NCBI GenBank assembly: GCA_018823885.1
Contig: JAHJHG010000009.1
Coordinates: forward strand, 151,751-215,750
Source of the DNA: Patescibacteria group bacterium
GTDB taxonomy: Bacteria > Patescibacteriota > Microgenomatia > UBA8517
Direction: 5' to 3'
Length of the DNA: 64,000 bases
A model generated the notes under the pieces. It saw only the letters and a program-made list of their open reading frames with translations. It had not been told where the DNA came from and did not search any database. The number at the start of each line of letters is the position of its first letter. Position 1 is the first letter of the stretch. The position numbers were made by a program, and so were the translations under genes. Below, one piece after another: positions 1,982 through 10,920 of the stretch.

Positions 1982-2189
1982 GGGAAACAAGAAATTTCAG
2001 ATCACGACTACGCCGTGAACGTTGTCTTATAAGCGTTGGGAAAGGATTGCGTAGAACTAGCAAACGTTAAAAAAGATTGCTAATTCTCCCAAGCGATTGA
2101 GAAAGAAAAGAAGTCAAAAGAGTAAAAATTTAGTGGATATTGCGCAAGGACTTTAAATTTGACATTATTATATAGAGAAGTGATAATAC

Positions 2190-2468
2190 ATGACCGCCCA
2201 GTCTAAAATGACACTATCAAGGTTTAATGTTGTTTTTAACTTGCCCACTAGATATATAACCGTTAATAAAAAAATATCAGGCGGACAACCCCTTTTGAGA
2301 GGCACTAGAGTCCCAGTTGATTTAATATTCGACTTCATTGTTAAAGGATGGAGCATAGGAGAACTTCCTGCACATTTTCCTGGAATAGACACTTCTTTGG
2401 TTGAAAAACTTGTACGATATCGTTCCATCGAATCCTCACGAGATGAACTCAAAGAGAAAAGAAAATAA
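2190..2468 (+). CDS. DUF433-family small protein (putative antitoxin-like)
   Basis: 92 aa with the GGQPLLRGTRVPVDLIFDFIVKGWSIGELPAHFP core typical of DUF433. Overlaps the next gene. Confidence 0.6.
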   Translation: MTAQSKMTLSRFNVVFNLPTRYITVNKKISGGQPLLRGTRVPVDLIFDFIVKGWSIGELPAHFPGIDTSLVEKLVRYRSIESSRDELKEKRK

Positions 2469-2823
2469 AGGAACACTCGTTTGGGATGCAGGCGCATCAA
2501 GATTACTACAAGAAAGCGCACGAAATGCTGGATATAAGATAATAGCAGTTAATCCTCTTGATAAAACATCGGGTGATCGACTTATTGCTTCCAAATATGC
2601 ACAGGGTAGATTTCCCGTTGTAACTAGCGATAGGACTGCATGGAAAGAGATGCTTGTTGAGAAAGGAGCTACAGCCATTGTGTGTATCAAGAATCCCAGA
2701 AAAGAAGATTTTGGAATAATCAAAAAAAAGCTGGAATCATTTTTAAAGAAAAGCACAGCAAATAGTCTAAGGGGATATATTTGGACAGTTTCTGTAACCA
2801 AAGTTGATAAAAAGAAAATATAG
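2443..2823 (+). CDS. DUF5615-like PIN-like small protein (putative toxin partner of DUF433)
   Basis: LVWDAGASRLL...VVTSDRTAWKEM pattern resembles the DUF5615/Mut7-C-like LVDENL...TxDxDF pattern. Overlaps the DUF433 gene by 26 nt with an ATG at 2443. The ORF track begins earlier, at a TTG at 2401. Confidence 0.5.
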   Translation: MNSKRKENKGTLVWDAGASRLLQESARNAGYKIIAVNPLDKTSGDRLIASKYAQGRFPVVTSDRTAWKEMLVEKGATAIVCIKNPRKEDFGIIKKKLESFLKKSTANSLRGYIWTVSVTKVDKKKI

Positions 2824-2962
2824 TCTTTTGTACCCTATGTATTTTACCCAGCCTATGATATTACATAGCTTTCATGAGTGTTACTATCATAAAACGAAAA
2901 ATGGGTGTCGCCCTCTCGGGCGCTCGCCGACTGATTGACCACCAAACAACCGATTTAAGGGG

Positions 2963-3268
2963 GTGAGTAGGATGATTAAATTTAATTCAACACAAGAATT
3001 TACAAAAACCAATATAAAGAAATTGCCTACCAACAAAGCCATTATTTACAAAATAAAAGACAGCAAAGGCAAAAATATATATACTGGCATAGCTGGAAGA
3101 GGGGAAAGTCAAAATAGATTACTTGCTCACAAGGAATTAAAAAAGGATAAAATTCCAGGAGCGAGTAAATTTCAAATTAAACAGGTTAAAAATAAGGATA
3201 TTGCCAGAAGAAGTGAGAAACAAATAATCAAGAGCGAAAGACCTAAATTTAATAAACAAGATAAATAA
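2963..3268 (+). CDS. Small GIY-YIG-like domain protein
   Basis: AIIYKIKDSKGKNIYTGIAGRGESQNRLLAH matches the GIY...YIG...R pattern. Basic C-terminal tail. Confidence 0.45.
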   Translation: MSRMIKFNSTQEFTKTNIKKLPTNKAIIYKIKDSKGKNIYTGIAGRGESQNRLLAHKELKKDKIPGASKFQIKQVKNKDIARRSEKQIIKSERPKFNKQDK

Positions 3269-3386
3269 CCCAACACGAAAGCCATCTGCAAGTTATGGCG
3301 ATTGAATAAGATTATTAGTGTTATCTAAAAAAATAAAGAGTGGAGTGGAATTAATGAATAAGAAGAAATTAAAAAAATAGAAAAGT

Positions 3387-4072
3387 ATGGGAATAAATAT
3401 GTCAAAGAAATACTGGAAACCCAATACAATAATAAACAGAACCTTAGACGCAACTGGTATAAGGGATTGGAATTTTTTTTCTCAAAAAGCTTTTATAGAG
3501 GAAGAAAAGATGAAATATCTGATGTATTTCAACAAAGAGCACTGGAAACAATTAAGGAATTTGACTTAAAAAAGAATATTGGAAAGTTTTCCTCTTCAAG
3601 TTTTACCAACTTACTTCAAAAAAACGGAGTAAATAACAATATGGATCGACGGATGGTTTGTGAAACGATCCAGTTAGTAAAAGGTGATGCTAATAAAAAT
3701 ATTGTTTCCTACTCGATCAATAAGATAAAAAAGGGAGAGGTTGGTGAAATTTATGAAGAATTGTGCAACATATATGGAATCGCAGATAAAATCGCATGTT
3801 TCTTTTTGAGAGATGTTTCTATTACTTTTAATTTAGATAAAATGATCGACGAAGAAGATTATAAATATTTTCAACCGATTGATACTTGGGTCAATCAAAC
3901 ATCCAGCAAGTTGGGGATCATCGGCCCAGAGTACAATAATGTTCAGGAAATCAAATCCAAAATTATAAACTCATGTCTTAATAACAAAGTATCACCTTTA
4001 CTGTTTAATGCTGGAGCTTGGTATGTAGGAAAACACGCATTTGACATCTTTTTTGAAGAACCATTTAGGTAA
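3387..4072 (+). pseudogene. HhH-GPD-type DNA glycosylase-like protein, reading frame broken at a T8 homopolymer (3473-3480)
   Basis: Two overlapping ORFs, 3387-3569 and 3467-4072 (TTG start), join into one ~229-aa ORF if the T8 run is read as T9. The downstream part carries a helix-hairpin-helix-like IYGIADKIACFFL followed by PIDTWV, resembling the EndoIII-family GxGxKxA...VDTHV signature. Confidence 0.35.
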
Positions 4073-4121
4073 CCCCTATTTATACTGTTTCATTTGTCTC
4101 GTTTAGTTTTAATGTGAGACA

Positions 4122-4424
4122 ATGGTGTTAATGTTTTATACATATATCATACGCACGACGGGGAACACTTTGTACACAGGTCAAACAAATAACCTTAAGC
4201 GAAGAGTAGAGGAACACACAATCCACGGCAAGCGGGCTTCTAAGTATTTGAAATCATTTTTAGGTTGTAAGCTTGTTTACTATGAAATTTATCCTATCCG
4301 AAGCGAGGCAATGCGCCGAGAGGCTGAATTAAAGAATTGGTCTCATGATGAAAAGGAGGATCTTGTTAAACAGTGTCAATTTCCGCTGACAGAATTTAAT
4401 GTGGAACAAAAAGTTCCAATATAG
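4122..4424 (+). CDS. GIY-YIG nuclease superfamily protein (YhbQ/UPF0213-like)
   Basis: FYTYIIRTTGNTLYTGQTNNLKRRVEEH is a classic GIY-YIG N-terminus. Paralogous to 25716-25973. Confidence 0.7.
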   Translation: MVLMFYTYIIRTTGNTLYTGQTNNLKRRVEEHTIHGKRASKYLKSFLGCKLVYYEIYPIRSEAMRREAELKNWSHDEKEDLVKQCQFPLTEFNVEQKVPI

Positions 4425-4434
4425 TCCCAGATGG

Positions 4435-4544
4435 TCAGCCCAATTAGGCACCCTAGCGACCCAGGTGTCTAGAATAACCCGGAAGTTTTTGTTAAAACGC
4501 CAGTTAAAACCTCAAACATTCGTACCACATCCTCACTGTCCGGA
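4435..4544. repeat. Copy A of a ~108-bp direct repeat family (GGCACCCTAGCGACCCA...AAACATTCGTACCACA...CCGGA)
   Basis: Roughly 80% identical by eye to 20853-20960. Shares both ends with 19300-19408. Same orientation in all copies. Confidence 0.6.
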
Positions 4545-4586
4545 AATTTCTATTAAAAATGGTAAAATTGATCGAAACAATCAATA

Positions 4587-7556
4587 ATGATGGAAAATAC
4601 TGTTAAAAACTATATTCAGTCAATCTCCTCAAAATTCTCTTACGAGGAAACTAGCGAGATGGGGTATCGTACTGATTTTGAAATATTGCTTAAAGAAATT
4701 TTCAAATCAATCAAGGTTACTCGCTTTGATCATGATGCGAGAGCCAGACAGGGCAATAAACCGGATTTTGTTGTAGTTAACAATAGCGTGCCTATTTTGT
4801 ATATAGAAACGAAAGATATTGGAAAGTCTCTAGATAAAGTTGAGAAATCAGAACAAATGACCAGATATTTTGGGTATGCCAATCTTGTTCTCACAGATTA
4901 CACAGAGTTTCGTTTTTACAGAAACGGTATTAATTATGGTGAGCCAATAAAAATTGCGGATTATGATATAAAAGATCGAACAATCACTCCGAACCCGAAA
5001 AATTATGAATACCTAGCAAAAACCCTACTTGATTTTACTAAGTCCCACAAAGAACCAATCCGTTCGGGTAAGCACCTTTCAAGAATTATGGGTGGCAAAG
5101 CTCAGAGAATTCGTGATAACACACGCCACTTTTTCTCCAATGGGTCGAAAAAAGATACAGATCTTGTCAAATTGTTTGAAACCTTTAAAAAACTTCTCTT
5201 ACATGATCTGACACCAGACTCTTTCGCTGACATGTATGCACAGACTCTTGTATATGGTCTTTTTGTCGCGCGCTATCACGATAAAACACTTGGTAATTTT
5301 TCAAGACAAGAAGCTCGTGAGCTCATCCCAAATTCCAATCCTCTTTTGCGTCACTTTTTCGATCATATAGTTGGAGCAGATTTTGATAAACGACTTAAAT
5401 ACATTGTTGATGAGTTGTGTGAGGTATTCTCACATGCCGACGTAGCCAAACTCATGGAGGAATATTTCAAGGAAGATTCCCAAAATGGACAAAAAGGCCC
5501 AGATCCAGTTATCCATTTTTATGAGGATTTTTTAAAGAAGTATGATCCAGATTTAAGAAAAAAGATGGGAGCTTACTACACTCCACAACCTATTGTGCAA
5601 TTTATCGTTTGCTCAATCGACTATTTACTCAAAAAAGAATTCGGACTTTCAACTGGCCTTGCTGATACTTCAAAAACGACAGATAATATTCATCGCGTTC
5701 AGATTCTTGATCCGGCAGTGGGAACAGGAACATTTATCAGTGCAGTTATCAGAACAATTTATAAGAGACTATTAAAAAAAGGGCAAAAGGGACGATGGCC
5801 TGCATATGTCCACAATGACTTGCTTCCACGCCTGCACGGTTTTGAGATAATGATGGCTCCATATACAATAGCCCATTTAAAATTAGGTATTGATTTTAGA
5901 AAGACTGGATTTTGGGATTTCCATCGTCGTTTGGGTATTTATCTTACTAATTCACTAGAGGAAAGTAGTATCCAACAGCAAGATTTATTTGCATTTGGTT
6001 TGGCAGAAAGTATCGCTGAAGAATCAAAAGAGGCATCAGTCATTAAGAACAAAACTCCAATTATGGTTGTAATTGGCAATCCACCTTATAGTGTTAGTTC
6101 ATCAAATGTAAATGCATATACAAAGAAATTAATAGAAGTATATAAAAGAGGCTTAAATTTAAGAAATACACAACCGTTATCTGATGATTATATTAAGTTT
6201 ATAAGATTGGCTGAAGTTTTAATAAATAAAAATAAAAGTGGAATAGTTGCGTATATTTCAAACAGATCTTTCTTGGAGGGTATTATCCATAAATCAATGA
6301 GAGCGTCACTTCTTGGTTCGTTTGATGATATATACATTGTTGACTTAAACGGTGATGCGACAATCAATCAAACAAGAGATAATCCTGATAATGATCAAAA
6401 TGTTTTTGATATAAAACAAGGTGTAGCAATATCAATTTTTGTGAAAAAGGTAAATAGTGTTACAGAGAAAAAATTAAATTATTTTAGTGTTCGTGGCAGT
6501 CGATTATCAAAGTTTGATTTTTTAAGTAGCACAAAATTAAGTGATATTGATTTTTCTGAACTCCAACCAAATTCAGAATTCAATTTTTTTGTTGAAAAAG
6601 ACTTAACTAATGATGAGTACGTAAAATTTATTTCTCTAGACGAAATATTTAATGTCCATTCAAGTGCAATAGCAACATCTGATGATAACAACTTGGTATC
6701 GTTTACAAAAAGAGACGAATATAAAATCCCGTTTTCGTACAGACCCTTTGATCAGAGATATATCAATTATGATTTGAAGAAAGTAAAAGGTAATCGTTAT
6801 AATCGTTTGGTTAAATTTTTAATAAATGAAGAATTTAGTGAACTTTTTGAAAATATAAGTTTGGCTTGCTCAAAAAATATCACAACAGAAAGTTTCTCTA
6901 GTGTTTTAGCTAGTAAATCACTTATTGAAAGGAAGTTTTGTGATTATTCAAGAGGCCCACATGTTTTTCCTCTTTACATATACAATGGCAAGGAATCACG
7001 TATCTCAAATGTGAACAATAATTTTACTGCTAATGTATCTCGAATAGTTGGTGATGTATATCCTGAAGATATTTTTGATTATATTTATGCAGTTTTATAC
7101 TCACCCAGCTACCGTGAGGAATACAGGGAATTTTTGAAAATTGATTTTCCAAGAATTCCATATCCTAAGAATAAAGAAGGTTTTAAAAAACTTGTTTCGC
7201 TCGGAAACGAATTAAGAGCACTTCATTTACTGGAATCGTCGAAGTTGAATCAATTCATTACTACTTATTCTATTGATGGGTCTAATATTGTAGAAGAAAC
7301 AAATTACCAAAATGGGAATGTTCGTATCAATGAAAATCAATATTTTGGGAATGTTCCAGAAATAGCCTGGAATTTTCATATCGGCGGGTATCGACCAGCT
7401 CAAAAATGGCTAAAAGATCGCAAAGGTCGAAAATTAATCAATAAAGACCTTGAACATTATCAGAAAATAATTGTTGTTTTGGTAGAGACGGTAAAGATTA
7501 TGGAAGAGATAGATAAATTTTACAATTTGGTAATAAGTTCCTCAAAAAGCCAATGA
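4587..7556 (+). CDS. Type IIG restriction-modification enzyme (fused PD-(D/E)xK endonuclease, gamma-class N6-adenine methyltransferase and C-terminal specificity domain; MmeI/Eco57I-like)
   Basis: N-terminal PDFVVV...ILYIETKD (PD...ExK). GAYYTPQPIV (Eco57I-family MTase signature). DPAVGTGTF (motif I). NPPY (motif IV). A long C-terminal domain ends in the GGYRPAQKWLKDRKG box typical of this family. Confidence 0.75.
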   Translation: MMENTVKNYIQSISSKFSYEETSEMGYRTDFEILLKEIFKSIKVTRFDHDARARQGNKPDFVVVNNSVPILYIETKDIGKSLDKVEKSEQMTRYFGYANLVLTDYTEFRFYRNGINYGEPIKIADYDIKDRTITPNPKNYEYLAKTLLDFTKSHKEPIRSGKHLSRIMGGKAQRIRDNTRHFFSNGSKKDTDLVKLFETFKKLLLHDLTPDSFADMYAQTLVYGLFVARYHDKTLGNFSRQEARELIPNSNPLLRHFFDHIVGADFDKRLKYIVDELCEVFSHADVAKLMEEYFKEDSQNGQKGPDPVIHFYEDFLKKYDPDLRKKMGAYYTPQPIVQFIVCSIDYLLKKEFGLSTGLADTSKTTDNIHRVQILDPAVGTGTFISAVIRTIYKRLLKKGQKGRWPAYVHNDLLPRLHGFEIMMAPYTIAHLKLGIDFRKTGFWDFHRRLGIYLTNSLEESSIQQQDLFAFGLAESIAEESKEASVIKNKTPIMVVIGNPPYSVSSSNVNAYTKKLIEVYKRGLNLRNTQPLSDDYIKFIRLAEVLINKNKSGIVAYISNRSFLEGIIHKSMRASLLGSFDDIYIVDLNGDATINQTRDNPDNDQNVFDIKQGVAISIFVKKVNSVTEKKLNYFSVRGSRLSKFDFLSSTKLSDIDFSELQPNSEFNFFVEKDLTNDEYVKFISLDEIFNVHSSAIATSDDNNLVSFTKRDEYKIPFSYRPFDQRYINYDLKKVKGNRYNRLVKFLINEEFSELFENISLACSKNITTESFSSVLASKSLIERKFCDYSRGPHVFPLYIYNGKESRISNVNNNFTANVSRIVGDVYPEDIFDYIYAVLYSPSYREEYREFLKIDFPRIPYPKNKEGFKKLVSLGNELRALHLLESSKLNQFITTYSIDGSNIVEETNYQNGNVRINENQYFGNVPEIAWNFHIGGYRPAQKWLKDRKGRKLINKDLEHYQKIIVVLVETVKIMEEIDKFYNLVISSSKSQ

Positions 7557-7844
7557 GGTACCAAGGTTGACTGGAGGCTCTTTTAGCGGAATGGACCAGT
7601 TGTATTTTGCTCACAAAAACCTTCTGTTAAAGAAAGTTAGGCAGCGAGAAAATAGCAGAAATATGGAAATAACGACACAAGCTAAAGATGGCTATGAACA
7701 ACGTATTGGTTGGATAGAATTTAAAAACAAGGTAATGACAAAAGAGAAAATTCTATTGTACAACTGGTTGCTTTAACAAAGAGCTGGAACGATGGGGGAA
7801 GCAGGTGATCATTATTATGAAGGCACTTGGCAGATGGTTTGAAA

Positions 7845-9203
7845 TCATGAAACCTTTTGTTTAAGGTGGGCCAATAAAGCTTTTTTCTTGTTTGGAATTT
7901 TCTTTTCTTCAACTTCTTCAAAAAGTTGTTCTAATATTTCTCCTACTTTTGGTCCAGGTTTTAAGTTTAATTCCTTCATGACATCATTTCCTGATATTTT
8001 TAGATCATGAATGGTGAATGGTTGTTTTTGAACTTCAATTATTCTTTTTTTGAATTCTTCTAATCTCCACGAGGTTTCTCTGGCTCCACCACCCAGTCTG
8101 TCTCCTACTCTTAAATCAATCATGTCTTTAATGTTTTCTTTACCTACATTTTTAATAAATCTTCTTATTGCTTTGTCCGTTTGTTTTTCATCAACAGTGA
8201 ATTGATGCCACTGAACAAGAGTGATTAGCTTTTCTGATTGTTTTTTTGATAATTTCAATCTTTCAGCTATTCTTTTGGCAATCCTGGTACTGACAACCTC
8301 ATGGTTATAGAAAGTAATTGTTCCATTTTCTAGTTTTCTGTATGTTTGCGGCTTGCCAATATCATGAATTAAAGTAGCGAACCTAACGATAGGGTCAGTG
8401 CTTTTACAATGTTTTAGAGAAAGGAAACTATGCGTACCAACGTCATGAACGTGGTGTCTGCCCGGTGATTTTTGTTCTACGCCAAAAGTTTTTTCAAGTT
8501 CAGGAAGAATTTCTTCCAACAATCCAACTTCTCTAAAGATAATCATGCCTTCATATGGATTAGTAGAGGCAAGAATTTTAATTAATTCATCTTTTGCTCT
8601 TTCTTTGGCTATCTTGTTAATGAGTGGGGCATTTGTTTTTATTGCTTCGAGTGTTTCCTTTTCAATTTTAAAATTAAGTTCTGTGGCAATTCTCACTGCC
8701 CTCATCATACGCAGGGCATCTTCCGAGAATCTTTCTGAAGCTTCTCCCACGGCTCTAATGAGTTTCTTTTCTAGGTCTTTTTGACCATCGTAGGGATCAA
8801 TAAGTTCATACTCATCTTTCTTGCCCTTTTTTCTTTTAAGAGCCATGGCATTGATGGTGAAATCACGTCTTTTAAGGTCTTCTTCTAGTGTTTTTCCCCA
8901 AACGACCTTGTCTGGACGACGCTTGTCTGTATAGCCTGATTCGTGCCTAAAAGTGGTTATTTCATACGGATGGGGCGATGATTCATGACTAATACCGACA
9001 GTACCGAAGGTATTGTCATAGAAACCGTCTGGAAAAATCTTAAGAATCTCTTTTGGAGTAGCGTTGGTGGTGAAATCCCAGTCTTCAGCGCTCTTTTTCG
9101 TCAATAAATCACGCACGGCTCCTCCTACAAGATATATTTCAAATTCTGCTTTCTCGAATTTTTTTAGAATTTCTAATACGAATTTTGGTAGCTGGACATC
9201 CAC
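7845..9203 (-). CDS. cca: CCA-adding tRNA nucleotidyltransferase with HD domain
   Basis: LVGGAVRDLL, a DxD nucleotidyltransferase core, RRDFTINAMA and a C-terminal HD domain (HDIGK). The ORF track extends to 9476, but that 90-aa hydrophobic extension overlaps recJ on the other strand. An in-frame GTG at 9203, 9 nt after a TATAAT box, is the more likely start. Confidence 0.7.
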   Translation of the reverse strand: MDVQLPKFVLEILKKFEKAEFEIYLVGGAVRDLLTKKSAEDWDFTTNATPKEILKIFPDGFYDNTFGTVGISHESSPHPYEITTFRHESGYTDKRRPDKVVWGKTLEEDLKRRDFTINAMALKRKKGKKDEYELIDPYDGQKDLEKKLIRAVGEASERFSEDALRMMRAVRIATELNFKIEKETLEAIKTNAPLINKIAKERAKDELIKILASTNPYEGMIIFREVGLLEEILPELEKTFGVEQKSPGRHHVHDVGTHSFLSLKHCKSTDPIVRFATLIHDIGKPQTYRKLENGTITFYNHEVVSTRIAKRIAERLKLSKKQSEKLITLVQWHQFTVDEKQTDKAIRRFIKNVGKENIKDMIDLRVGDRLGGGARETSWRLEEFKKRIIEVQKQPFTIHDLKISGNDVMKELNLKPGPKVGEILEQLFEEVEEKKIPNKKKALLAHLKQKVS

Positions 9204-9237
9204 TGCGCTACTATTATACTTCAAGAAAGGAGAACCA

Positions 9238-10920
9238 ATGAATACCCAAACTAAAAAATGGGAGGTATTAAACAAATTACCTAAGGGTAAAAAGAAAATT
9301 ACCAGTAATGATATTATTAACACTCTTCTTAAGAGTCGAGGGATAACAACCCCCGAAAAAAGAAAAGAATTCTTCAATCCGGTCCTGCCTGAAAAAATTA
9401 CCTTACGCACCTTGGGACTCAGCAAGGTGGCTGTTGAAAAGGGGATAGCGAGGATAAAGAAGGCCAAAAAGAACAAAGAAAAGATTATTGTCTATGGAGA
9501 TTATGATGCTGATGGCATAACCGGTACAGCTATTCTCTGGGAAACTCTTTTTGCCTTTGATAAAGAAACACTTCCATATATCCCTGACCGGTTTACTGAA
9601 GGATATGGTTTAAATCCCAAAACTATTATTAAGTTAAAAGAGGAATATCCCAATTTAGGATTAATAATCAGTGTTGATAATGGTATTGTGGCCAATAAAG
9701 CGGTCACTAAGGCCAATAAGCTAGGAATGGATGTCATTATTACCGACCATCACAAAAAAGCAAAAACAATTCCTAAAGCACTAGCCATCATTCACACAAC
9801 TGAGATCGGTGGAGCGGCCGTTGCCTGGGTTTTTGCCAGAGAGATTAGGAAAAAACTTCGAATGCCGAAATCTGAGTTTAAAATGGGAGACGGATTGGAT
9901 TTGGCCGCGATAGGAACAATTGCCGATCAAATTTCTTTACTAGGCTCAAATCGTTCTTTTGTGAAATATGGCTTGAGAGCTTTAAACAAAACTATTCGAC
10001 CCGGATTACTTTCTCTTTTTAAAGAAGCAGCTATTAAGAGAGGAGCGATTGGTACTTATACGGTTGGTTTTATTGTTGCCCCAAGAATTAATGCTATGGG
10101 TAGACTTGAACATGCGATGGATGCTTTAAGACTTCTTTGCACAAAAAAAAGAGTTCAAGCAGAAGAGTTTGCTCATTTTTTGGGAAAAACTAACAACGAA
10201 AGACGAAAAATAGTTGATGAAGTAACTATTCATGCAACCGAGGCCGTTAAGGAGACAATGGAAACATCAATCCTTGTTGTTCATGAAAGTTATCATGAGG
10301 GTGTCATTGGGCTTGTTGCTTCCCGTTTAGTGGAAACATTTTACAAACCAACCATTGTCATTTCTCGAGGAAAAGAAATTTCTAAGGCTTCTGCCCGTTC
10401 AATTCCGGGATTTAATATCATTGATGCGATTAGAAACCTGGATAAATTAACCATTGAGGCGGGAGGTCACCCAATGGCGGCTGGGTTTAGTATCAAGACA
10501 AGCAATATAGATAAATTTACTAAGGAATTTGAGAAAGAAACAAAACTTGCGTTAAACGGGGAACTATTAACAAAAAAATTAAAAGTGGACATGGAATTGG
10601 GTTTTGATTTGTTGAGTAAAGAATTAGCGGAGATAATTTCAACTTTTGAACCAACCGGAACAGGGAATTATGCTCCGGTTTTTGCGACCAAAGGAGCAAC
10701 GGTTATTGAAGCAAGGGTTGTCGGCAAAACAGGTACACATCTAAAGTTAAAGTTGCAAGAAAACGACAAGATACTTGATACGATTGCTTTTGGCTTTGGC
10801 CACTTGTCTCCTAAACTTTCTTTGGGAAGCCTTGTTGATGTTGCTTATAATCTAGAAGAAAATGAGTGGAACGGTAGGAAGAGTTTGCAGCTCAATGCAA
10901 GGGATATAAGAATAAAATGA
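9238..10920 (+). CDS. recJ: Single-stranded-DNA-specific exonuclease RecJ
   Basis: DHH family motifs (IVYGDYDADGITG, ITDHH), DHHA1 and a C-terminal OB-like region. ATG at 9238 is preceded by AGGAGAA. The ORF track begins earlier, at 9064. Confidence 0.85.
   Translation: MNTQTKKWEVLNKLPKGKKKITSNDIINTLLKSRGITTPEKRKEFFNPVLPEKITLRTLGLSKVAVEKGIARIKKAKKNKEKIIVYGDYDADGITGTAILWETLFAFDKETLPYIPDRFTEGYGLNPKTIIKLKEEYPNLGLIISVDNGIVANKAVTKANKLGMDVIITDHHKKAKTIPKALAIIHTTEIGGAAVAWVFAREIRKKLRMPKSEFKMGDGLDLAAIGTIADQISLLGSNRSFVKYGLRALNKTIRPGLLSLFKEAAIKRGAIGTYTVGFIVAPRINAMGRLEHAMDALRLLCTKKRVQAEEFAHFLGKTNNERRKIVDEVTIHATEAVKETMETSILVVHESYHEGVIGLVASRLVETFYKPTIVISRGKEISKASARSIPGFNIIDAIRNLDKLTIEAGGHPMAAGFSIKTSNIDKFTKEFEKETKLALNGELLTKKLKVDMELGFDLLSKELAEIISTFEPTGTGNYAPVFATKGATVIEARVVGKTGTHLKLKLQENDKILDTIAFGFGHLSPKLSLGSLVDVAYNLEENEWNGRKSLQLNARDIRIK

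What the first reader, a model, noticed from the sequence alone, without database searches (positions are those of the whole stretch)
4587..7556. 989-aa fused Type IIG restriction-modification enzyme in a compact defence island of a reduced genome
A single polypeptide carries a PD-(D/E)xK nuclease (PDFVVV...IETKD), an Eco57I/MmeI-type gamma N6-adenine methyltransferase (GAYYTP, DPAVGTGTF, NPPY) and a long C-terminal specificity region. No separate methyltransferase or S subunit is present. MmeI-like enzymes have programmable specificity; one in a CPR-like lineage is of enzymological interest. Its neighbours are a DUF433/DUF5615 pair, two GIY-YIG genes and a glycosylase-like gene.
Basis: partly seen in the sequence, partly recalled or inferred. 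Interest (0 to 1): 0.6.

Follow-up and report, generated by a model that had tools for sequence, protein, structure and literature searches.

The report
Ordinary single-chain restriction-modification enzyme gene
This gene encodes an intact one-protein restriction-modification enzyme (DNA cutter, DNA methylase and sequence reader fused together) of a very common, horizontally spread family, so it is a correct but ordinary find, and only its unknown recognition sequence could be new.

Summary
The 989-aa ORF at 4587-7556 (+) is real and all the quoted motifs are present. [quoted passage not shown]

The TRD is the Type ISP/DrdV kind (Pfam Type_ISP_C, 2e-62), not the MmeI kind. MmeI is found only by fold comparison, and weakly. 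The closest solved structure is DrdV. The closest genetically studied relative is the Borrelia burgdorferi lp56 enzyme (bbq67), at 33% identity end to end.

The family is very large: at least 7,998 protein clusters and at least 591 species genomes, including 11 CPR genomes among the best 80. It has no conserved partner gene. Its TRD core is swapped freely between members. The exact protein is already in NCBI as 'N-6 DNA methylase [Patescibacteria group bacterium]'.

The gene lies in a 5.9-kb low-GC insertion at a variable secF-cca junction. The 'defence island' label is only partly justified, and the 'glycosylase-like' neighbour is unconfirmed. Verdict: a new member of a known kind, of low interest.

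The parts
4587..7556 (+). Complete gene for a 989-aa single-chain Type IIG/IIL restriction-modification enzyme. The alternative start at 4590 gives the 988-aa protein deposited in NCBI.
   Evidence: ORF list and translation. PADLOC REase_MTase_IIG at 790 bits. Exact match to P0001, 'N-6 DNA methylase [Patescibacteria group bacterium]'.
4587..4991 (+). N-terminal PD-(D/E)xK endonuclease domain (aa 1-135). Catalytic candidates are D60 (4764-4766), E74 (4806-4808) and K76 (4812-4814).
4992..5501 (+). All-helical connector (aa 136-305) between the nuclease and the methyltransferase.
   Evidence: Helices 137-295 in the AF2 model. Same domain order as DrdV (10.1101/2021.01.06.425610). No ATPase or helicase family hit.
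5502..6506 (+). Gamma-class N6-adenine DNA methyltransferase domain (aa 306-640). Motif X GAYYTP is at 5568-5585, motif I DPAVGTGTF at 5709-5735 and motif IV NPPY at 6078-6089.
   Evidence: Pfam N6_Mtase at 40.4 bits and Eco57I at 33.3 bits, both above cut-off. Residue-by-residue alignment to DrdV, LlaBIII and LlaGI. Motif residues are invariant in the family.
6507..7061 (+). Variable core of the target-recognition domain (aa 641-825), the presumed reader of the DNA sequence.
   Evidence: It is the least conserved stretch of the family. Identity is 84% and 68% to P0002 and P0003, but only 23-35% to 33 other homologues whose remaining regions are mostly about 60-80% identical. At 55% identity the TRD cores of 76 sequences fall into 64 clusters.
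7062..7553 (+). Conserved C-terminal part of the TRD (aa 826-989).
   Evidence: Pfam Type_ISP_C covers aa 710-973. Column conservation reaches 0.77-0.88 at aa 826-850 and 926-975.
1982..7844 (.). A 5.86-kb low-GC variable segment between secF and cca that carries the RM gene. It also holds DUF433 (2190-2468), a DUF5615-like gene (2443-2823), two small GIY-YIG genes (2972-3268, 4122-4424) and a 201-aa ORF of unknown function (3467-4072). These genes are context, not parts of the enzyme.
   Evidence: GC is 0.342 against 0.384 for the window, and only 2 of 123 3-kb windows have a lower GC than the RM gene. In many relatives secF and cca lie about 90-140 bp apart, and other relatives hold different cargo there. 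None of the neighbours recurs next to family members elsewhere.

Best explanation
The gene encodes a stand-alone, ATP-independent Type IIG restriction-modification enzyme, of the Type IIL sort if its site is asymmetric and methylated on one strand. It belongs to the DrdV / Borrelia BBQ67 lineage.

Inferred mechanism, by analogy with DrdV and MmeI: the C-terminal TRD together with the methyltransferase domain binds a short, probably asymmetric, recognition sequence. The target adenine is flipped into the NPPY pocket and N6-methylated with AdoMet, which protects host sites. Unmethylated incoming DNA carrying several sites lets DNA-bound molecules assemble. Their N-terminal PD-(D/E)xK domains (D60/E74/K76) then cut both strands at a fixed short distance to one side of the site.

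Shown here: the domain architecture, intact catalytic motifs, family membership, the lack of any partner gene, and the location in a horizontally acquired variable segment. Inferred: enzymatic activity, one-strand methylation, the multi-site requirement, the cut distance and the recognition sequence. The recognition sequence is unknown; it is probably shared with P0002 and P0003 only.
For: - Family models: PADLOC Type IIG at 790 bits. Pfam Type_ISP_C at 2e-62, plus N6_Mtase and Eco57I above cut-off.
- Conservation: D60, E74, K76, YTP, DPAxGTGTF and NPPY are invariant in 36 close and 76 more distant relatives.
- Whole-protein fold: Foldseek places DrdV first over the full length (E 4e-35), then LlaGI/LlaBIII (1e-27). 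BrxX (9e-10) and MmeI (7e-9) are far behind.
- Studied relative: 33% identity end to end (E 8e-147) with the only homologue on B. burgdorferi B31 lp56. That plasmid carries bbq67, which restricts transformation and is needed for single-strand m6A at CGRKA (10.1101/375352; PMC4466376).
- No partner gene: no conserved neighbour in 80 loci and no second amino-methyltransferase motif in the 64-kb window.
- DrdV mechanism and its shared origin with Type ISP MTase-TRD units: 10.1101/2021.01.06.425610.
Against: - There are no biochemical or methylome data for this protein or for any relative above 33% identity.
- The full-length AF2 model is only moderate (pLDDT 69.5, pTM 0.49), so domain packing is not informative.
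- Pfam HSDR_N and MmeI_Mtase hits are below their curated cut-offs.
- Expression is not shown, and promoter and terminator scans are at chance level.
- The identification of the lp56 gene as bbq67 rests on the plasmid and on it being the only match there, not on a locus-tag label.
Confidence: 0.87

Rival explanations
1. It is effectively an orphan DNA methyltransferase whose nuclease domain is no longer active. It would then act in epigenetic regulation, or simply persist after loss of restriction. NCBI names it only 'N-6 DNA methylase'.
For: The NCBI name mentions only the methylase. In Borrelia, loss of the homologous enzymes changes the transcriptome, and the paralogue bbh09 gives no detectable motif. 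Nuclease activity cannot be read from sequence alone.
Against: P59-D60, E74 and K76 are intact and invariant across 76 relatives, and the nuclease domain is 70-80% identical to close homologues, as expected under purifying selection. The ORF is full length, with no frameshift or simple-sequence repeat.
Confidence: 0.08
2. It is a BREX/PglX-like or other methylation-based defence methyltransferase that needs partner proteins and has no nuclease role of its own.
For: There are weak PADLOC hits to PglX (22 bits), DrmMI (19.5 bits) and NCBIfam MADS MAD2 (17 bits against a cut-off of 720). BrxX is found by Foldseek at E 9e-10.
Against: These scores are dwarfed by Type IIG at 790 bits. No brx, pglZ or drm genes lie in the neighbourhood. 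No neighbour is conserved across 80 loci. PglX has no counterpart to the N-terminal nuclease domain found here, which matches DrdV and BpuSI.
Confidence: 0.02
3. It is a Type ISP enzyme (LlaGI/LlaBIII type) or a decayed remnant of one. Several databases label relatives 'type ISP restriction/modification enzyme' or 'predicted helicase'.
For: The MTase-TRD part matches LlaBIII and LlaGI strongly (profile E 1e-66 and 2e-58), and the TRD Pfam family is named after Type ISP. Source names appear.
Against: No helicase or ATPase domain is present. The whole family keeps a uniform length of about 960-1,090 aa with a helical connector instead. The nuclease domain resembles DrdV and BpuSI. The labels are carried over from the shared MTase-TRD module.
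Confidence: 0.02

Closest known systems
DrdV (Type IIL, Deinococcus wulumuqiensis; PDB 7LO5/7LVV)
   Different: Structure-based identity is only about 20%. The nuclease and connector are not alignable by sequence search (the alignments start at about aa 284-311). The TRD core is unrelated in sequence, so DrdV's site (CATGNAC) and 10/8 cut position cannot be transferred.
Borrelia burgdorferi BBQ67 (lp56) and BBE02 (lp25) bifunctional RM enzymes
   Same: The lp56 enzyme aligns end to end with the query (33% identity, E 8e-147) and has the same Type_ISP_C TRD and the same catalytic motifs. Both Borrelia enzymes are genetically shown to restrict incoming DNA and to be required for single-strand m6A at short asymmetric motifs: CGRKA for BBQ67 and GNAAYG for BBE02.
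   Different: The Borrelia lp56 protein is about 100 aa longer, plasmid-borne and has a different TRD core. Its cleavage position has not been characterised biochemically.
Type ISP enzymes LlaGI / LlaBIII
   Same: The MTase-TRD module is homologous (profile E 1e-66 and 2e-58; Pfam Type_ISP_C).
   Different: Type ISP enzymes carry an SF2 helicase-like ATPase and an Mrr-type nuclease. They cut far from the site after translocation and collision. This protein has no ATPase.
MmeI family (Type IIL) and BpuSI (Type IIG)
   Different: There is no significant sequence relationship. MmeI_Mtase scores 26.1 bits against a cut-off of 27. No MmeI_N, MmeI_hel, MmeI_TRD or MmeI_C hit was found. Neither protein is found by the family profile at E<=1.

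Membership tests
Single-chain Type IIG/IIL RM enzymes (DrdV/BBQ67-like; PADLOC REase_MTase_IIG PDLC03610) | N-terminal PD-(D/E)xK endonuclease domain with intact catalytic residues | tested here: met
Single-chain Type IIG/IIL RM enzymes (DrdV/BBQ67-like; PADLOC REase_MTase_IIG PDLC03610) | Gamma-class N6-adenine methyltransferase in the same chain (motif X, then I, then IV NPPY) | tested here: met
   YYTP at 330-333, DPAVGTGTF at 375-383 and NPPY at 498-501, in that order. N6_Mtase and Eco57I Pfam hits are above cut-off.
Single-chain Type IIG/IIL RM enzymes (DrdV/BBQ67-like; PADLOC REase_MTase_IIG PDLC03610) | C-terminal target-recognition domain in the same chain, with no separate S or M gene | tested here: met
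   Type_ISP_C at 2e-62. No conserved neighbour in 80 loci. No other methyltransferase motif in the window.
Single-chain Type IIG/IIL RM enzymes (DrdV/BBQ67-like; PADLOC REase_MTase_IIG PDLC03610) | Full-length match to the family model | tested here: met
   PDLC03610 at 790 bits, E 1e-237.
Single-chain Type IIG/IIL RM enzymes (DrdV/BBQ67-like; PADLOC REase_MTase_IIG PDLC03610) | [quoted passage not shown] | not testable with these tools
   This needs biochemistry or a methylome. It is known for DrdV and, for one-strand methylation, for BBQ67 and BBE02.
MmeI family sensu stricto | Detectable sequence homology to MmeI across the nuclease, helical, MTase and TRD domains (Pfam MmeI_N, MmeI_hel, MmeI_Mtase, MmeI_TRD, MmeI_C) | tested here: not met
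   Only MmeI_Mtase is hit, at 26.1 bits against a cut-off of 27. The family profile does not find 5HR4 at E<=1. Foldseek reaches MmeI only at E 7e-9, rank 40.
Type ISP (LlaGI/LlaBIII) | SF2 helicase-like ATPase between the nuclease and the methyltransferase | tested here: not met
   No ATPase family hit. Residues 136-305 are a helical connector. Alignments to LlaBIII and LlaGI begin at their MTase domains.
Type ISP (LlaGI/LlaBIII) | Type ISP-type MTase-TRD module | tested here: met
   Pfam Type_ISP_C at 2e-62. Profile E 1e-66 to LlaBIII.
BREX PglX/BrxX | Match to PglX models and co-location with brxA/B/C, pglZ and brxL | tested here: not met
   PglX scores 22 bits against 790 bits for Type IIG. 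The neighbours are secDF, small ORFs, cca, recJ and relA. No PADLOC hit for any neighbour.

The most novel reading that the evidence does not exclude
The TRD core (aa 641-825) is shared only with two metagenomic proteins (84% and 68% identity) and is at most 35% identical to every other relative examined. It may therefore specify a recognition sequence not yet catalogued for any restriction enzyme. If so, this compact enzyme would add one new specificity to the DrdV/BBQ67-type scaffold. That scaffold's free TRD exchange (64 TRD clusters among 76 sequences) might make it as useful for specificity engineering as the MmeI family.
Probability: 0.4. Interest if true: 0.3.

Novelty: new member of a known kind. 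Interest (0 to 1): 0.15.

Why it matters
It matters little beyond correct annotation. The protein is deposited as 'N-6 DNA methylase', and relatives are mislabelled 'type ISP' or 'predicted helicase'. All of them are really helicase-less nuclease-methylase fusions.

Restriction systems are already known to be well represented in CPR bacteria (PMC4742961). Type IIG is reported as the most prevalent RM subtype in groundwater microbes (PMC12259885).

There are two modest points of value:
- The family's conserved scaffold with freely exchanged TRD cores is a natural library of specificities.
- The secF-cca junction is a recurrent site for accessory and defence cargo in this Patescibacteria lineage.

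Tried and rejected
- **MmeI-based inference of the recognition motif.** Rejected, because the TRD is a different Pfam family and MmeI is not a detectable sequence homologue.
- **Functional link with neighbours** (GIY-YIG genes, the DUF433/DUF5615 pair, the 201-aa ORF). Rejected. All-against-all comparison of ORFs flanking 80 family members found no neighbour family in more than 3 loci, and none included the window's neighbours. The two proteins sharing the TRD sit in other contexts.
- **Glycosylase identity of ORF 3467-4072.** No hit in Pfam (E<=5), NCBIfam, PADLOC or PDB sequences. By eye only, I see an HhH-like 'GIADKIACFFLRDV' and a 'PIDTWV' stretch. This is not a test.
- **Mobile-element signatures.** No flanking direct or inverted repeats beyond chance-level short matches, no simple-sequence repeats for phase variation, and no integrase or transposase match among the segment's ORFs.
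- **Promoter and terminator scans.** At shuffle expectation, so uninformative.
- **Literature search for PF18135/Type_ISP_C.** Nothing found.
- **Site-avoidance analysis.** Not attempted; 64 kb is too little sequence for an unknown asymmetric 5-7-nt site.
Full report
**Observation.** The ORF is exactly as described. It runs from ATG at 4587 to the stop at 7554-7556 on the + strand and encodes 989 aa. The quoted motifs are all present:
- PDFVVV at aa 59-64
- IETKD at aa 73-77
- GAYYTP at aa 328-333
- DPAVGTGTF at aa 375-383
- NPPY at aa 498-501

The same protein, read from the second ATG (988 aa), is already in NCBI as 'N-6 DNA methylase [Patescibacteria group bacterium]' on a 238-kb contig. 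The window has about 91% ORF coverage and 38% GC.

**What the protein is.**

Family models:
- Pfam gives Type_ISP_C (E 2e-62, aa 710-973), N6_Mtase (40 bits) and Eco57I (33 bits), all above cut-off.
- MmeI_Mtase (26.1 bits against a cut-off of 27) and HSDR_N (21.8 against 25.1) fall just below.
- PADLOC's Type IIG model PDLC03610 matches at 790 bits (E 1e-237). PglX reaches only 22 bits.

Solved structures by sequence:
- A single-sequence search finds DrdV (7LO5, E 1e-48), LlaBIII and LlaGI.
- A 36-sequence family profile raises these to 4e-69, 1e-66 and 2e-58. It still does not find MmeI or BpuSI at E<=1.

Fold comparison:
- An AlphaFold model of the whole protein is of moderate quality (pLDDT 69.5).
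- Foldseek places DrdV first over the full length (E 4e-35), then the Type ISP enzymes (1e-27). BrxX (9e-10) and MmeI (7e-9) are far behind.

Predicted secondary structure:
- A helix is followed by three strands, with D60 at the start of the second strand and E74/K76 in the third. Short helices and a further strand follow.
- Residues 137-295 are all helical, as in DrdV's connector.
- No ATPase or helicase domain is present.

**Conservation.**
- In 36 close homologues (61-79% identity), D60, E74, K76, the motif I residues (DPAxGTGTF) and NPPY are invariant.
- In 76 sequences that include species-representative genomes, P59, D60, E74, K76, G328, Y331-T332-P333, most of motif I and N498-Y501 are 100% conserved.
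- The nuclease is therefore under the same constraint as the methyltransferase, which argues against a dead nuclease.

**Family size and distribution.**
The best 120 are essentially all full length at 58-79% identity.
They span Bacteroidota, Proteobacteria, Spirochaetota, Cyanobacteria relatives and others.
- Eleven of the best 80 are CPR genomes: WWE3, Saccharibacteria (four loci), Wildermuthbacteria, Taylorbacteria, Peribacteria (two loci), Dojkabacteria and Parcubacteria.
- A CPR copy is therefore not unusual. [quoted passage not shown]

**Stand-alone gene.**
- I compared all ORFs within 3.5 kb of the gene across 80 loci. No neighbour family occurs in more than 3 loci, and none includes the window's neighbours.
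- The RM gene is the only ORF of 100 aa or more in the 64-kb window with an amino-methyltransferase motif IV, and no ORF has a PCQ motif.
- This fits the Type IIL logic, in which the enzyme's own one-strand methylation protects the host. That logic is documented for DrdV. For the Borrelia enzymes BBE02 and BBQ67, methylation is likewise on a single strand at about 100% of sites.

**Experimentally studied relatives.**
- A tblastn search of plasmids found 157 records, 35 of them covering at least 80% of the query. They include Borrelia and Borreliella linear plasmids.
- The only match on B. burgdorferi B31 lp56 is a 1,086-aa gene labelled 'type ISP restriction/modification enzyme'.
- It aligns with the query end to end (33% identity, E 8e-147). 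PD, ExK, YYTP, the motif I core (A.GTGTF) and GNPPYS line up, and it has the same Type_ISP_C domain.
- lp56 carries bbq67 (PMC4466376). I equate the two because it is the only homologue on that plasmid, not from a locus-tag label.
- bbq67 and bbe02 limit transformation by foreign DNA. They are required for m6A on one strand at CGRKA and GNAAYG respectively, at about 100% of sites (10.1101/375352).

**Specificity.**
- The least conserved stretch of the family is aa 641-825.
- Region-by-region identity shows a sharp pattern. With P0002 and P0003 the TRD core is 84% and 68% identical. With 33 other homologues it is 23-35% identical, although their nuclease, connector, MTase and C-terminal parts are mostly about 60-80% identical.
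- Among 76 sequences the TRD cores fall into 64 clusters at 55% identity.
- So TRD cores are exchanged on a conserved scaffold, and this enzyme probably shares its recognition sequence only with P0002 and P0003.
- The sequence itself cannot be inferred here. MmeI contact-residue rules do not apply because the TRD is not an MmeI_TRD.

**Genomic setting.**
- Upstream lie secD and secF (135-1981). Downstream lie cca (7845-9476, minus strand), recJ, relA/spoT, a class II aminoacyl-tRNA synthetase (AspRS/AsnRS type) and a D-Ala-D-Ala carboxypeptidase.
- The order secD-secF-cca is conserved in most of the ~30 longer metagenomic relatives, and many also keep relA, aspS and dacA downstream (recJ is detected in only a few). 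In many of them secF and cca lie only about 90-140 bp apart. In the window the gap is 5,863 bp.
- The junction holds other cargo elsewhere:
  - an AAA_15/AAA_21 ATPase in the closest relative, L084
  - a clear DUF433/DUF5615 pair in L109
  - a staphylococcal-type nuclease in L095 and L096
  - an ASCH protein in L101 (its L102 counterpart is similar in sequence)
- The inserted segment has 34.2% GC against 38.4% for the window. Only 2 of 123 3-kb windows have a lower GC than the RM gene.
- No flanking repeats, integrase match or simple-sequence repeats were found.
- The segment is therefore a horizontally acquired variable region. However, only the RM gene matches a defence model, so 'defence island' is generous.
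- DUF433 is confirmed (48 bits). Its partner is only weakly DUF5615-like (14 bits, though over the whole profile). GIY-YIG is solid for 4122-4424 and sub-threshold for 2963-3268. The 'glycosylase-like' 201-aa ORF has no database support.

**Mechanism.**

Shown:
- the architecture and intact motifs
- family membership
- the absence of any partner gene

Inferred from DrdV, MmeI and the Borrelia enzymes:
- The MTase-TRD unit binds a short asymmetric site and flips the target adenine.
- It then either methylates that adenine (host DNA) or, when several unmethylated sites allow DNA-bound molecules to assemble, cuts through the N-terminal nuclease domains at a fixed offset.
- No ATP is used.

**Verdict.** The family assignment needs shifting from MmeI to the DrdV / Type ISP-TRD / BBQ67 lineage. 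The claimed special interest of a CPR copy does not hold. This is a new, uncharacterised member of a well-known and very abundant kind. I put interest at about 0.15. The only open point with some value is its unknown, possibly uncatalogued, recognition sequence.

Noticed in passing
window 1982-7844; L084:2143-4467; L109:10874-16620; L095:6598-8434; L101:2010-2556: The secF-cca junction is a recurrent variable spot in this Patescibacteria lineage. It is about 90-140 bp wide in many relatives. Elsewhere it holds an AAA_15/AAA_21 ATPase, a DUF433/DUF5615 pair, a secreted SNase-type nuclease or an ASCH protein.
   Followed up: partly
window 6507-7061 (aa 641-825) compared with P0002-P0120 and L002-L081: The TRD core is exchanged on a conserved scaffold. 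There are 64 TRD clusters at 55% identity among 76 family members. Only P0002 (84%) and P0003 (68%) share this gene's TRD core.
   Followed up: yes
L013, L023, L051, L072, L080: In 5 of 80 species-representative genomes the homologous gene is not one continuous frame. In L051 (labelled Flavobacterium psychrophilum) the match spans 4.3 kb. These could be pseudogenes, insertions or assembly errors.
   Followed up: no
database labels of P0006, P0007, P0023, P0032, P0042 and others; plasmid hits H1-H12: Helicase-less members of this family are widely labelled 'predicted helicase' (JGI) or 'type ISP restriction/modification enzyme' (NCBI). The window's own protein is labelled only 'N-6 DNA methylase'. 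All of these labels miss the nuclease-methylase fusion without an ATPase.
   Followed up: partly
window 3467-4072 (+): This 201-aa ORF has no hit in Pfam, NCBIfam, PADLOC or PDB sequences. By eye it has an HhH-like 'GIADKIACFFLRDV' and a 'PIDTWV' stretch reminiscent of HhH-GPD glycosylases. This resemblance is untested.
   Followed up: partly
window 4399-4587 (+) and 7567-7776 (+): The 62-aa and 69-aa ORFs abutting the RM gene have no family hits. The 62-aa ORF is not called as a gene on the independent Logan contig of the same sequence, which ends before the 69-aa ORF. Both are probably spurious.
   Followed up: partly
window 9064-10920 (+) versus 7845-9476 (-): The mechanical recJ ORF overlaps the 5' end of cca by about 400 bp. 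The DHH domain starts at aa 140 of that ORF, so the true recJ start is probably near 9480.
   Followed up: no
plasmids collection: Full-length relatives sit on 35 plasmid records, including Borrelia and Borreliella linear plasmids and Acinetobacter, Pseudomonas and Agrobacterium plasmids. This fits horizontal spread of the family.
   Followed up: partly
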